Shown in pieces: positions 34,249 through 38,796 of a stretch of 64,000 bases of DNA. Both the position numbers and the translations under genes were made by a program. The notes beneath the pieces are model-generated. The model had not been told where the DNA came from and made no database searches. It worked only from the letters and a program-made list of their open reading frames with translations. Source of the DNA: the human T2T-CHM13v2.0 reference genome, Homo sapiens. The stretch is from assembly GCF_009914755.1 (NCBI RefSeq), contig NC_060936.1, one strand, 5' to 3'. The first letter of the stretch is position 1; each line of letters starts with the position of its first letter.

Positions 34249-34394
34249 TTTTAGGCTCCTGAACACATGGAGGTGCAGGAGTGTGACAGGCCCAGGAAGG
34301 GCATGGAAGCATTGCACCCCTTCCCACCAATGCATCTCCTTATCTGGTTTTCATCCGTATCCTTCATAATATCCTTTATAATAAACTGGTAAAC
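34249..34394 (+). mobile_element. MER21-family LTR fragment forming the 5' end of the retrocopy
   Basis: ctgaacacatggaggt...gggcatggaagc...tgcatctc...atcctttataataaactggtaaac matches the recalled MER21 consensus. Confidence 0.7.
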
Positions 34395-34984
34395 ATCAGC
34401 TTTCCACAGGCTTTCTTTCTCCATGGTGAGCAGGACAATGTCCTAGGACCCCAGAGAGCCAGGAGAGAGCAAGATCAAAGCCAGAAATCCAACTCTGTCC
34501 CTACTGCCCACTGGTCTTTTCCAGTCAACACTTCCTCAGCAAATACATGCCACATAGCCGTGCTGCTCAGAGGTCTCCTGGCTTATATGCAGAAAAGGCC
34601 CTGTGGCCCAGGATCACAGTAGCAACAATATTCTCATCAAAGCAGCCAGAGTGATACAGCAGAAGGTCAAGAGACAGAAAAAAGCACTAAATCCTGGTTT
34701 ATAAGAGACAGGCAGACTTCAAGGGTTGTCTCCTAAGACAATAAGTAAGCTCAAGGGGAAGCTTATAACCAGTAAGCTTCAGTGGTGAAAAAAGAGCCTA
34801 GCCAGGCCCAAATGGGAAATCCTAAAGAAATAGACATATATTAAAAGAAATAGTAAATTCAAGATGGGGAGCATTCAAGTGTGCAGAGGGTGAGCAAGAC
34901 TTTAGTCAGAAAATAAAGTTACTCTTTCTTGCCATTGAGCTTAAGCCAAAAAAAAAAAAAAAATTAAAGAAAAGAAAGCTACTT

Positions 34985-35585
34985 GGCTGGGCGTGGTGGC
35001 TCATGCCTGTAATCCCAGCACTTTGGGAGGCCGAGGCGGGTGGATAACCTGAGGTCAGGAGTTCAACACCAGCCTGACCAACATGGTGAAACCCCATCTC
35101 TACTAAAAATACAAAAACTAGGCTGGGTGTGGTGGCTCATGCCTGTAATCCCAGCACTTTGGGAGGCCGAGGCAGGCGGATCACCTGAGGTTGAGAGTTC
35201 GAGACCAGCCTGACCAACATGGAGAAACCCTGTCTCTACTAAAAATACAAAATTAGTAGGGTGTGGTGGTGCACGCCTGTAATCCCAGCTGCTGGGGAGG
35301 CTGAGGCAGGAGAATCGCTTGAACCCAGGAGGCGGAGGCTGCGGTGAGCCGAGATTGTGCCATTGCACTCCAGCCTGGGCAACAAGAGCAAAACTCTGTC
35401 TTAAAAAAAAAAAAAAAAAAAATTAGCTGGTTTGGTGGTACACGCCTGTAATCCCAGCTACTCAGGAGGCCAAGGCAGAAGAATCACTTGAACCTGTGAG
35501 GTGGAGGTTGCAGTGAGCCAAGATGGCACCACTGCACTCCAGCCTGGGCAACAGCGAGATGCAGTCTCCAAAAAAAAAAAAAAAA
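34985..35585 (+). mobile_element. Alu nested within the mid-A linker of another Alu, inside the ZNF pseudogene
   Basis: Left arm 34985-35119, complete Alu 35121-35422, right arm 35423-35585. Zinc-finger coding sequence resumes at ctcatacacaaaaaagcacactcc. Confidence 0.92.
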
Positions 35586-36345
35586 TCTACTCATACACAA
35601 AAAAGCACACTCCAAGCATTAGTTTTTCATATGCAGGGAGTGATGAGTCAGCATTACTCTTGCACCAGAATATACATGCAGGAGGGAAGTCCTATGTGTG
35701 CAATAAGTGAGGGCGGGGCTTTAGAAATAAGTCACACTTCACATACCAGAGGACACACTCAGGGAAGAAGGCTTTCTTGTGAAAGGAGTGTGGGTAAGAC
35801 TTCTTATAGAAGGCAATTCTCACTGCATATCAGAAAACCCACTCAGGGAAGAAGTCTTTTGTATGCAAGGAGTGTAGGTAAGACTTTACCCAAAAGTCAA
35901 CTGTGCATGAGAGAACACACTTGGCAGAGAAGCCTTATAGATGCCAGGAGTTGTGGACAAAGGATTAGGTATAAATCATCCTATGATAAACACTGGAAGG
36001 CACACTCAGGGGAGAAGGCTTTGTTGTGCAGGGAGTATGGGCAAGACTTCAGCTTGAAGACATCTCTTACCAGACACCAGAGGACACACCCAGGGAAGTA
36101 ACTCTGCTTCTTTAAAAAGCTGTAGCCAAGACTGTGCAACTTGTTTATGGATATATCACGAAGGCAGAAGGGATCCAGAGGGCTAAAAGAACCTGAACTT
36201 GGCCCAAGTTATTCCCAGAGATTCTGAGAAAAGAGGCACTGAGAGCCTCACCAACCTCCTTAGACGGCACAGCAGTCTAGGACCCCTCCACCAAACCTTC
36301 CCTCCCTCTGTTCTTCCCTCTGGCAGCTCTCCCAACCTTCCTTAG

Positions 36346-36695
36346 TGCTATGGTTTGAACAATGTTGTCCCTTGCAAAATTCATGTTGAAACCTAATCAC
36401 CAATGTAACATTATTAAGAGAATGTTTAGGATGTGGTTAAGTCATGAGGATGGAGCCTTCATGAATGGCATTAGGTACCCTTATAAAAGGATTTGGCAAA
36501 AGATTTGGCATCACTTTACCCTGTCCTCCAACTGCCATGTGAGGACACAGAGCTCCTCTCCTCTGGAGGATGCTATGTCAAGATACCATGTTGGAAGCAG
36601 AGAGCAGCCCTTGTGAGATAACCAAATCTGCTGGCACCTTGATCTTGAACTTCCTAGCTTCCACAACTGTGAGAAAATAAATTTCTGTTCTTTAT
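36346..36695 (+). mobile_element. MaLR LTR (MSTD/MLT1A-like), cut off just after its poly(A) signal
   Basis: Begins tgctatggtttgaa...aaattcatgttgaaacctaatc and contains ctgctggcaccttgatcttgaacttc...aactgtgagaaaataaatttctgttctttata. The usual last ~45 nt of the LTR are replaced by an A-rich tail. Confidence 0.82.
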
Positions 36696-38796
36696 AAAAC
36701 AAACAAACAAACAAACAAACAAGAAACGCTACAGATAAAAAACACTGTAACAGAAATGAAGAATCCCGACCAGGCACGGTGGCTCATGACTGTAACCCCG
36801 GCATTTTGGGAGGCTGAGGTGGGTGAATCACTTGAGGTCAGGAGTTAAAGACCAGCCTGGCCAACATGGTGAAACCCCCGTCTCTACTAAAAATACAAAA
36901 GTTAGTCGGGCATGGTTGCGCAAGACTGTAGTCCCAACTACTCAGGAGGCTGAGGCATGAGAATTGCTTAAACCCAGGAGGTGGAGGTTGCAGGGACCTG
37001 AGATCGTGCCACTGCAATCCAGCCTGGGTGACCAAGAGAGAATCTGTCTCAAAAAACAAAAAAGAAATGAAGAATGCCTATGATGGGCTCAGTAGTAGAC
37101 TGGACATAGCTGAGCAAAGAATCTTTGAACTTGAGCTGGGCATGGTTGCATGTGTCTGTAGTTCCGGCTACTTGGGAGGCTGAAATTGGAGGATGACTTG
37201 AGCCCACGAGTTTGAGACCAGCCTAGGCAACATAGTGACATAGTAAGACACTGTCTCTAAAAACAAAGAATCTCTGAACTTGAGGATATGACAATAGAAA
37301 CTTCCAAAACTGGAAAGCTAAGAAAAGAAGAACTAAAAAAAAAATAACAACAACAAAATATCCAAGAACTGTGGGACAAATACAAAAGGTATAATATGTG
37401 CATAATAGGAGAAAGAAAGAAACACACACGGCCGGGCGCGGTGGCTCATTCCTGTAATCCCAGCATTTTGGGAGGCCGAGGCGGGTGGATCACGAGGTCA
37501 GGAGATCGAGACCATCTTGGCTAACACAGTGAAACCTCGTCTCTACTAAAAATAGAAAAAATTAGCTGGGCGCAGTGGCGGGCGCCTGTAATCCCAGCTA
37601 CTCGGGAGGCTGAGGCAGAAGAATGGCGTGAACCCGGGAGGCGGAGCTTGCAGTGAGCCGAGATAGCGCCACTGCAGTCCGGCCTGGGAGAAAGAGCGAG
37701 ACTCCGTCTCTGAAAAAAAAAAAAAAGAAAGAAAGAAAGAAAGAAAGAAACACACACAATATTTGGTATTGCTAAACAATAACTAAAGCGATAACTAAAA
37801 ATGTCCCCCCAAATCAATGTCAGACACCACACCATAAGAACAATAAGCAGGCTAAATGACAAACAAACAAACAAACAAAAAACTACACCTAGATATATCA
37901 TATCCAAACTTCAGAAAATCAAAGAGAAAGAGAAACATCTTGAAAGAAGGCAGAGGGAAAATCACCTTACCTACAGAGGAGCAAAAACAAGAATTACATC
38001 TAACCTCTCAGAAACCATGCAAGCAGAGAGTACAGTCAAAGAGAGAAAACCCTATCAGCCTAGAATTCTGTATCCTGCACAATTCTTCAGAAGAAAGGCC
38101 ACATGTGGTGTGGCTCACGTCTATAATCCCAGCACGGCAGATGGATTGCTTGTGTCCAGGAGTTTGAGACTAGCCTGGGCAACACAGTGAGATCTCATCT
38201 CAATGAAAAATAAACAAAATTAGCCAAGTGTCCTGGCGTGTACCTATAGTCCTAGCTATTTGGGAGGCTGAGGTGGGAGGATCGCTTAAGCCCAGGAGGT
38301 TGAGGTGAGCTGAGATCACACCACTGCACTCTAGCCTGGGCAACACAGTGAGATCTTCTCTCAAAAAAAAAAAAAAAAAAGTGAAGGAAAAATAAAGACT
38401 TTCTCAAGCAAACCAAAATACGGAGAAATTGTTGCCCACAGACTTGCCTTGCCAGAAATCTTAAAAGAAGTTCTTTAGAGAGAAGGAAAATGAGCTAGGC
38501 ACGGTGGCTCATGCCTGTAATCCCAACACTCTGGGAGGCTGAGGCGGGAGGACTGCTTTAGCCCGGGAGTTTGAGATCAGCCTGGGCAATATCAGCAGAC
38601 CCTATTTCTAACAAAAATAAAAATAAATTAGCTGGGCATGGTGGTGCTTATCTGCTGTTCCAGCTACTCCAGTGGCTGAGATGGGAGGATTGCTGGAGCC
38701 AGGGATGTTGAGGCTGTAGTGAGCTACAACCTTGCCACTGCACCCCAGCCTACGTGACACAGTGAGATGCTGTCTCAAAAAAAAAAAAAAAAAAAA

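What the first reader, a model, noticed from the sequence alone, without database searches (positions are those of the whole stretch)
34249..36727. Fossil mRNA bracketed by two LTRs: MER21 first exon, ZNF337-like body, MaLR poly(A) site, retrotransposed as one unit
Seen: L1 ORF1 sequence stops at ...aaaaaagAGAAAC (34243-34248) and resumes at aAGAAAC|gctacagataaaaaacactgtaacagaaatgaagaat (36722 on), so everything between is a single insertion. Its order is MER21-like LTR piece, short ZNF exon, ZNF last exon, UTR, MaLR LTR to just past AATAAA, then an (AAAC)n decayed tail. Recalled: the MER21 consensus continues ...ggtaaac|GTAAGT, a perfect splice donor, exactly where the match ends here (34394). 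Inference: this is a snapshot of an ancient, probably germline or early-embryo transcript in which one LTR supplied the first exon and a different LTR supplied 3' processing for a gene of the KRAB-ZNF class that normally silences such elements. A repeat masker would split it into unrelated pieces, so the unit may be undescribed.
Basis: partly seen in the sequence, partly recalled or inferred. Interest (0 to 1): 0.8.

Follow-up and report, generated by a model that had tools for sequence, protein, structure and literature searches.

The report
Fossil LTR-started ZNF337 mRNA retrocopy
This is an old processed pseudogene: a spliced ZNF337 messenger RNA that began in one retroviral LTR and ended at the poly(A) signal of another, copied by LINE-1 machinery into an ATF7 intron; it is a clear example of a known kind of genomic fossil.

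Summary
Window 34249-36721 is one L1-type insertion inside an old L1 ORF1. It has a target-site duplication (AGAAAC, possibly 13 nt) and an (AAAC)n decayed tail, and other L1 copies run uninterrupted across the site. The insert is a retrocopy of a transcript of the chr20 ZNF337 locus.

- **5' end.** The first 146 nt are a sense piece of a dispersed LTR of about 800 bp. The piece starts about 32 nt downstream of the family's TATA-like box. It ends where other copies carry GTAAGT or its CpG-decay products.
- **Splice junctions.** That end is joined exactly to the acceptor of ZNF337's ATG-containing exon. The next junction sits exactly on that exon's donor. The KRAB-A and KRAB-B exons are absent.
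- **3' end.** The copy ends 15 nt after AATAAA inside a MaLR-type LTR. The chr20 gene has the same LTR at the same place in its 3'UTR, and there it continues past that point.

Three things stay open. The name MER21 could not be tested. No copy of that LTR family lies within 128 kb upstream of human ZNF337. The age (roughly 60-90 Myr) is only a divergence estimate.

This is a new member of a known kind and of moderate interest. RefSeq already annotates the core (34580-36101) as a ZNF337 pseudogene.

The parts
34236..34248 (+). Left target-site duplication in L1 ORF1. AGAAAC (34243-34248) is certain; it may extend to 13 nt, preceded by T (an L1 endonuclease-like site).
34249..34394 (+). It runs from about the LTR's transcription start to a splice donor. 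AATAAA is at 34380-34385.
   Evidence: 39 dispersed matches at 73-81% identity; copies carry a TATA-like box at -32 to -34, continue about 375 nt past the breakpoint, and have GT/AT + AAGT at the breakpoint.
34395..34469 (+). Copy of the ATG-containing exon of ZNF337 (chr20:25751970-25751895). The start codon is mutated in the copy.
   Evidence: 75% identity. Both ends coincide with the cacag| acceptor and |gtgaga donor of the chr20 exon.
34470..34580 (+). Ancestral 5' part of the last exon, encoding a lone C2H2 finger (KPE..CPxCP..H type). It is absent from human chr20 ZNF337 and present at the start of the last exon of a chr3 paralogue.
   Evidence: Pfam PF21225, E 3.3e-7.
34581..34924 (+). 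Last-exon linker and first degenerate finger, colinear with chr20:25742535-25742198.
   Evidence: 82% identity.
34925..35591 (+). Later insertions into the retrocopy: a 23-nt + A16 mini retro-insert with a 15-nt TSD, then two nested Alus with their own TSD.
   Evidence: the parent is contiguous across this block.
35592..36101 (+). About 6-7 decayed C2H2 finger units with stops and frameshifts, ending at the stop codon 36099-36101. The parent has 19 intact fingers.
36102..36345 (+). 3'UTR, colinear with the chr20 ZNF337 3'UTR.
   Evidence: 75-84% identity. The parent has an extra ~180 nt between the two matching blocks.
36346..36696 (+). MaLR-type LTR from its 5' TG to 15 nt past its AATAAA (36676-36681). 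This is the poly(A) site of the source mRNA.
   Evidence: 4709 first-look candidates; the 39 scored non-self copies are 71-78% identical; same LTR, same orientation in the chr20 3'UTR, continuing past this point.
36697..36721 (+). Decayed poly(A) tail, now (AAAC)n.
36722..36727 (+). Right target-site duplication, AGAAAC.

Best explanation
An L1-mediated processed pseudogene of a chimeric, fully processed transcript of the ZNF337 locus.

Transcription began at the promoter of a sense ERV-type LTR lying upstream of the gene. The 146-nt leader, which corresponds to the LTR's R region, was spliced from a GTAAGT-type donor 9 nt after the LTR's own AATAAA to the normal acceptor of the ATG exon. The KRAB-A and KRAB-B exons were skipped, so the canonical reading frame was broken. 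The last exon was used from an older, more upstream acceptor. The RNA was cleaved and polyadenylated at the AATAAA of a MaLR-type LTR in the 3'UTR.

L1 ORF2p then reverse-transcribed this mRNA at a T/AAAA nick in an old L1 ORF1 in what is now an ATF7 intron. Two Alus and a mini-insert landed in it later.

Shown: the single insertion, both exact exon junctions, the 3' end at the MaLR signal, the shared MaLR in the parent, and the position of the LTR piece relative to the TATA box and donor in sister copies.

Inferred: expression in germline or early embryo, use of the LTR's own promoter, an age of about 60-90 Myr, and later loss or displacement of the source LTR.
For: - **Single insertion.** TSD and tail. 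L1 is contiguous in 7 of 9 copies; the other 2 are interrupted only by their own Alu.
- **Junction 34394|34395.** It falls on the chr20 acceptor, and 34469|34470 falls on that exon's donor.
- **chr20 is colinear elsewhere.** Last exon, stop region, 3'UTR and MaLR all match.
- **LTR copies at the breakpoint.** Of 25 copies, the dinucleotide across it is CA 12, TG 7, CG 2, other 4. The following hexamers are ATAAGT 6, GTAAGT 2, GTAAAT 2 and single variants.
- **LTR copies continue.** They run about 375 nt past the breakpoint.
- **TATA-like box.** NATAAA lies at -32 to -34 from the base equivalent to 34249 in 14 of 25 copies.
- **3' end.** The parent MaLR continues beyond the retrocopy's end.
- **KRAB exons.** They are present in chr20 (Pfam KRAB, E 1e-23) and absent from the copy.
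Against: - No copy of the LTR family was found anywhere in chr20:25,730,001-25,880,000, which reaches 128 kb upstream of the ATG exon. Queries were the window piece and the cores of 25 copies. The source LTR is therefore unlocated.
- Only 2 of 25 copies still read GTAAGT. The donor is inferred through CpG decay.
- The 5' end could be a chance truncation near the start site.
- 34470-34573 has no chr20 counterpart, so the modern locus is not a perfect template.
- Identity to chr20 is only 75-84%.
- No orthologous genomes or RNA data could be examined.
Confidence: 0.8

Rival explanations
1. Same retrocopy, but the transcript started further upstream (another promoter or read-through). The LTR was only an exonised 5'UTR segment, and the 5' end at 34249 is an ordinary L1 5' truncation.
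For: 5' truncation is common in L1-mediated copies (established knowledge). The start site is inferred only from TATA spacing in sister copies.
Against: The 5' end falls within a few nt of the position expected from a TATA-like box at -32 to -34 (14 of 25 copies). The LTR extends about 280 nt further upstream in copies, so a random truncation point would rarely land there.
Confidence: 0.1
2. The source was not the present chr20 gene but a since-lost duplicate or rearranged copy of the ZNF337 locus that carried the LTR and the lone-finger segment.
For: No LTR within 128 kb upstream. 34470-34573 is missing from chr20. From my recall, supported indirectly by a table row in PMC9004415, the gene lies next to the pericentromeric region, which is prone to rearrangement.
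Against: The ATG exon, last exon, 3'UTR and the MaLR insertion are all colinear with chr20. No second ZNF337-like locus with the UTR appeared in the genome searches.
Confidence: 0.12
3. A reverse-transcriptase template switch: L1 RT copied a ZNF337 mRNA and jumped onto the 3' end of a separate LTR-terminated RNA.
For: The LTR piece ends 9 nt after its AATAAA. Two of 25 family copies (L029, L037) run into A-rich sequence at that same point, so an LTR RNA ending there is plausible.
Against: The ZNF side of the junction is exactly the first base after an internal-exon acceptor with a polypyrimidine tract. There is no A-run at the junction. A jump would have to hit that base by chance.
Confidence: 0.04
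4. LTR-retrotransposon-mediated retroposition, or independent insertions of LTR fragments beside a plain pseudogene.
For: The unit is bracketed by LTR sequence at both ends. That superficially resembles LTR-mediated retrocopies (PMC5131818, search listing and abstract start only; PMC5470649, passages).
Against: The two LTRs belong to different families. The 3' one is inherited from the parent UTR. Both are internal fragments, with no TSDs of their own. The whole unit has one L1-type TSD and a poly(A)-derived tail.
Confidence: 0.02

Closest known systems
RefSeq LOC100419830, zinc finger protein 337 pseudogene (hub annotation, 34580..36101 +)
   Same: Same locus, same parent gene, same strand.
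   Different: The annotation covers only the part alignable to the modern last-exon coding sequence. It leaves out the LTR leader, the ATG exon, the lone-finger segment, the 3'UTR, the MaLR poly(A) region, the tail and the TSDs (34249-34579 and 36102-36727).
Processed pseudogenes used as fossils of past transcript isoforms (Shemesh et al. 2006 PNAS). I saw this only as an entry in the reference list of PMC5470649; its content is recalled.
   Same: A retrocopy preserves an exon combination of the parent transcript: an alternative first exon, skipped exons and a poly(A) site.
   Different: Here both ends of the fossil mRNA are LTR-derived, and the first-exon LTR is no longer detectable near the human parent.
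MER21C-derived first exon of GPR1-AS/Liz (PMC12129452, abstract and passages). Also MER21A-HSD17B1 and MER21B-E2F3 chimeric transcripts (PMC11359688, passages).
   Same: A sense LTR acts as promoter and first exon spliced to host exons. MER21C is reported to be active after fertilisation and in placenta, which fits a heritable retrocopy.
   Different: Those are living transcripts with the LTR in place. This is a dead DNA copy. Membership of the present LTR in MER21 is untested.
LTR-mediated retroposition (PMC5131818, search listing and abstract start only; described in passages of PMC5470649)
   Same: A gene copy flanked by LTR sequence.
   Different: That mechanism gives copies embedded in one LTR element through template switches. 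Here there are splice-site junctions, a poly(A)-derived tail, an L1-type TSD and two unrelated LTR families.

Membership tests
L1-mediated processed pseudogene (retrocopy) | Introns removed exactly at the parent's exon boundaries | tested here: met
   34394|34395 and 34469|34470 coincide with the acceptor and donor of the chr20 ATG exon. About 9 kb of chr20 intron and two KRAB exons are missing between it and the last exon.
L1-mediated processed pseudogene (retrocopy) | 3' end shortly after a poly(A) signal, followed by an A-rich tail | tested here: met
   AATAAA at 36676-36681, last parental base 36696, then (AAAC)6.5.
L1-mediated processed pseudogene (retrocopy) | Target-site duplication at an otherwise contiguous target | tested here: met
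   AGAAAC on both sides. 7 of 9 L1 copies are contiguous across the site.
LTR-initiated chimeric gene transcript | Sense LTR piece that starts at the LTR's transcription start | tested here: inconclusive
   NATAAA lies at -32 to -34 from the 34249-equivalent base in 14 of 25 copies. There are no start-site data.
LTR-initiated chimeric gene transcript | Splice donor at the end of the LTR-derived exon, joined to a canonical host acceptor | tested here: met
   The donor is inferred through CpG decay: CG/CA/TG across the junction in 21 of 25 copies.
LTR-initiated chimeric gene transcript | Source LTR present upstream of the parent gene | tested here: not met
   No family member in chr20:25,730,001-25,880,000. 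Further upstream and other species were not examined.
MER21 LTR group (ERVL) | Alignment to the Dfam/Repbase MER21 models | not testable with these tools
No repeat library is available. Copies indicate an LTR of about 800 bp, against 938 bp reported for the MER21C consensus (PMC12129452).
MaLR LTR (MST/MLT1 type) | Highly repeated LTR starting with TG, with an internal AATAAA followed by further LTR sequence | tested here: met
   4709 first-look candidates, and the scored copies start at 36345-36346. The parent copy continues past the signal. The subfamily name is not testable.
KRAB zinc-finger gene (parent) | KRAB box plus a C2H2 array | tested here: met
   chr20: Pfam KRAB E 1e-23 and zf-C2H2 E 3e-93; 19 C2H2 motifs. 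The retrocopy itself lacks the KRAB exons. The one stop-free frame of its finger region gave no Pfam hit at E<=0.01, and finger remnants are seen only by translation.

The most novel reading that the evidence does not exclude
The retrocopy may be the only surviving record of two extinct states of an L1-binding KRAB-ZNF gene.

(a) A germline or early-embryo isoform that was LTR-promoted and lacked the KRAB domain, and whose LTR has since vanished from the human locus. This would date the co-option of an ERV promoter by a transposon-repressor gene to roughly the boreoeutherian-to-early-primate interval.

(b) An ancestral lone zinc finger of the kind I recall from PRDM9 and ZNF589, at the start of the last exon, which modern ZNF337 has lost.

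In addition, the family's strong donor sits 9 nt after its own AATAAA. This suggests a built-in U1-type block of premature polyadenylation, which would predispose this LTR family to donate first exons.
Probability: 0.3. Interest if true: 0.5.

Novelty: new member of a known kind. Interest (0 to 1): 0.35.

Why it matters
The finding shows that the annotated ZNF337 pseudogene is 2.5 kb long rather than 1.5 kb, and that its unannotated ends carry information.

- They record an ancient mRNA that was both started and terminated by LTRs.
- They record a skipped-KRAB exon pattern.
- They record a coding segment that the living human gene no longer has.

Retrocopies of this sort give dated snapshots of germline transcription and of transposon co-option by the genes that police transposons. 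ZNF337 is reported to bind L1MA 5'UTRs (PMC9252281, passages).

As a single locus it illustrates known processes rather than revealing a new one. It also illustrates how repeat masking and protein-based pseudogene calling fragment such units.

Tried and rejected
- **Source LTR near the parent.** I ran blastn with the window piece and with the cores of 25 family copies against chr20:25,730,001-25,880,000. The only hits were Alu or other-repeat flanks of two query loci. One 47-nt match (E 0.034) lacked both the AATAAA and the donor, and I treated it as chance.
- **chr20 counterpart of 34470-34573.** Smith-Waterman scores were no better than shuffles. There was no CPxCP motif in the sense frames of 50 kb. 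tblastn over 150 kb found only the last 13 residues, at the modern acceptor.
- **Naming the LTR family.** No repeat library is available. The length comparison was inconclusive.
- **TSDs around L029 and L037.** I looked for TSDs around these two A-run-terminated LTR copies as independent maps of the LTR's start and poly(A) site. No exact repeats were found.
- **Assigning retrocopy fingers to parent fingers.** Best matches scatter over the array, so deletion in the copy and later expansion in the parent cannot be told apart.
- **Shemesh et al. 2006.** The paper is not held.
- **Literature.** The search for LOC100419830 returned 0 papers. Searches combining ZNF337 with LTR, MER21, retrocopy, processed pseudogene or PRDM9 found no description of this unit. 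Supplements were not searched.
- **Rejected readings.** Template switch, LTR-mediated retroposition and independent insertions; reasons are given under the rivals.
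Full report
**Observation.** The window is human chr12 (hub note; one search places it at G000:C12:53506001-53570000). Reading 33900-37100 shows old L1 ORF1-like sequence ending in AGAAAC at 34243-34248 and resuming after a second AGAAAC at 36722-36727. 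The second copy is preceded by (AAAC)6.5 at 36697-36722.

To test continuity without relying on memory, I searched the genome with the left flank (matches of about 68-78% identity, so an old L1). I then aligned both flanks to 9 fetched copies. In 7 of 9, the left-flank homologue runs directly into the right-flank homologue (offset -11 to +2 nt). In 2 of 9, an Alu of their own intervenes. The L1 is therefore contiguous, and 34249-36721 is a single insertion. If the right TSD copy merges with the tail, the duplication may be 13 nt (34236-34248), preceded by T, as expected of an L1 endonuclease site.

**Parent locus.** Genome searches with the insert, followed by local blastn against fetched chr20 sequence, show colinear matches on the minus strand of chr20:25.74-25.75 Mb. 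I call this locus ZNF337 on three grounds: the hub's pseudogene name, my recall of the gene's position and N-terminus, and a table row in PMC9004415 that names ZNF337 as the gene nearest a chr20 pericentromeric site.

- Window 34395-34469 matches chr20:25751970-25751895.
- The chr20 exon is bounded by a polypyrimidine tract plus cacag on one side and gtgaga on the other. It contains the ATG of an MGPQGARRQ reading frame.
- Both retrocopy junctions (34394|34395 and 34469|34470) fall exactly on these boundaries.
- The chr20 KRAB-A exon (Pfam KRAB, E 1e-23) and the KRAB-B-like exon have no counterpart in the insert.
- From 34574 the insert follows the chr20 last exon.
- The parent is contiguous across 34925-35591. 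That block is therefore later insertion: a 23-nt + A16 mini-insert with a 15-nt TSD, and two nested Alus.
- The insert keeps about 6-7 decayed finger units with stops and frameshifts, against 19 intact C2H2 motifs in chr20.
- The end of the array, the stop region and the 3'UTR are colinear (35695-36236 and 36247-36343).

**A segment the living gene lacks.** 34470-34573 has no chr20 match. Smith-Waterman scores are within the shuffle range, and tblastn over 150 kb finds only the last residues at the modern acceptor.

- The segment is 78% identical to the start of the last exon of a chr3 paralogue, directly after that gene's ttcag acceptor. I recall that paralogue as ZNF589.
- Its translation hits Pfam PF21225, a lone C2H2 finger (E 3.3e-7, 30.2 bits against a cut-off of 27). 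I recall a similar finger in PRDM9.
- Homology between the insert and chr20 extends 7 nt upstream of the modern chr20 acceptor, in frame.

The simplest reading is that the ancestral last exon began at the equivalent of 34470, and that human ZNF337 now uses an internal acceptor and has lost the upstream part. With KRAB-A skipped, the ATG exon (which ends in phase 0) joins a segment read in phase 1. The copied isoform was therefore probably not a normal coding mRNA; this is inference.

**The 5' LTR piece.** 34259-34396 matches dispersed copies at 73-81% identity. There were 39 such rows among 40 scored, out of 656 first-look candidates. I examined 25 of them (6 loci plus the next 19 rows, fetched), and 14 rows were left unexamined.

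- Four long copies of one subfamily share about 280 nt upstream and about 375 nt downstream of the piece. The piece is therefore internal to an LTR of about 800 bp.
- **At the 3' breakpoint**: positions +1 and +2 read AT in 11, GT in 9, other in 5.
- The dinucleotide spanning the breakpoint is CA 12, TG 7, CG 2, other 4. That is the pattern of a decayed CpG.
- The next six bases are ATAAGT 6, GTAAGT 2, GTAAAT 2, GTGTTT 2, and 13 hexamers seen once each.
- By eye in the listing, 23 of 25 copies continue with shared LTR sequence. A stricter regular expression counts 19 of 25.
- Two copies (L029, L037) instead run into A-rich sequence at that point. This suggests the LTR's own poly(A) site lies there too. 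No TSDs were found to prove this.
- **At the 5' end**: 14 of 25 copies carry NATAAA 32-34 nt upstream of the base equivalent to 34249, and several others carry degenerate versions.

The piece thus spans from about the predicted start site to a GTAAGT-type donor 9 nt after the LTR's AATAAA (34380-34385). The name MER21 is not tested.

**The 3' end.** 36346-36696 belongs to a very abundant family (4709 first-look candidates; 39 scored non-self copies at 71-78% identity, most starting at 36345-36346). The chr20 3'UTR carries the same element, in the same orientation, right after the same UTR block (36247-36696 against chr20:25740169-25739715). In chr20 the element continues for at least about 50 nt after the point where the insert turns into its tail, 15 nt past AATAAA. 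The MaLR-type LTR was therefore already in the parental 3'UTR, and its signal was the poly(A) site of the copied mRNA.

**Source LTR.** No member of the 5' LTR family was found in chr20:25,730,001-25,880,000, which reaches 128 kb upstream of the ATG exon. The hits were only Alu or other-repeat flanks of two query loci, plus one weak 47-nt match without the signal or the donor. The first-exon LTR is therefore further away, lost, or belonged to a vanished duplicate. A larger fetch was not possible.

**Age.** Kimura distances between the insert and chr20 are 0.19-0.32 (ATG exon 0.32, pre-finger linker 0.20, last fingers 0.30, UTR 0.32 and 0.19, MaLR 0.32). Taking about 0.15 per lineage and a recalled rate of about 2.2e-9 per site per year gives roughly 60-90 Myr. 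This fits with PMC12129452 (passages), which cites Dfam for MER21C being boreoeutherian, if the family is indeed MER21. It also fits with primate Alus having inserted later.

**Mechanism and rivals.** The best explanation is L1-mediated retrocopying of an LTR-initiated, spliced, MaLR-polyadenylated ZNF337 transcript. Because the copy was inherited, that transcript must have been present in germline or early-embryo cells.

- **Template switch.** Disfavoured, because the ZNF side of the junction is exactly an internal acceptor and there is no A-run at the junction.
- **LTR-mediated retroposition or independent insertions.** Excluded by the single L1-type TSD and tail, the unrelated LTR families and the parental origin of the MaLR.
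- **Still open.** The LTR may have been merely exonised in a longer transcript (about 0.1), and the template may have been a lost duplicate of the locus (about 0.12).

**Comparison with what is known.** RefSeq already lists the core as a ZNF337 pseudogene (34580-36101). Several related things are established:

- LTR promoters and first exons, including MER21C for GPR1-AS (PMC12129452), MER21A for HSD17B1 and MER21B for E2F3 (PMC11359688).
- TE-derived poly(A) sites (recalled).
- The use of processed pseudogenes as fossils of old isoforms (Shemesh 2006, recalled; seen only in a reference list).

ZNF337 is reported to bind L1MA 5'UTRs (PMC9252281), so this is an L1-made copy of an L1-binder's mRNA sitting inside an L1. 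I found no paper that describes this unit (main texts only).

**Verdict.** This is a well-supported new member of a known kind and of moderate interest.

Noticed in passing
window 34910-34983: A tiny retro-insert (23 nt + A16, 34925-34963) flanked by a 15-nt duplication (34910-34924, repeated at about 34969-34983 plus one base after the Alus). It lies inside the retrocopy, and the Alus landed in its right duplication. The origin of the 23 nt is unknown.
   Followed up: partly
window 34984-35591: Two nested Alus. One full Alu (about 35111-35422, A20 tail at 35403-35422) sits inside the A-rich linker of another (34985-35585), with a short TSD (..ctact).
   Followed up: partly
window 36765-37063: A separate Alu in the same L1 ORF1, 38 nt downstream of the retrocopy, with the TSD GAAATGAAGAAT (36753-36764 and 37064-37075).
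   Followed up: partly
L029 (G000:C6:106716961-106718060) and L037 (G000:C12:111679559-111680710): Two copies of the 5' LTR family stop at the same base as the window piece and run into A-rich sequence. L037 also begins only about 8 nt upstream of the 34249-equivalent base. They may be retrocopies of LTR RNAs that were started and polyadenylated within the LTR, which would place the poly(A) site on top of the splice donor.
   Followed up: partly
L018/L017, chr20:25740350-25740170: The chr20 3'UTR holds about 180 nt between the two UTR blocks that match the retrocopy. This is an insertion in the parent or a deletion in the copy.
   Followed up: no
L018, chr20:25742542-25742536: The last 7 nt of the modern ZNF337 intron before the final exon are homologous, in frame, to exonic sequence of the retrocopy. 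This suggests the present acceptor arose inside a formerly longer exon.
   Followed up: partly
window 34249-34394 compared with LTR copies: The LTR copies fall into two sequence types around the start of the piece. The window piece groups with L006, L008, L023, L025 and L037, which carry a true TATAAA-type box rather than a CATAAA-type box.
   Followed up: no
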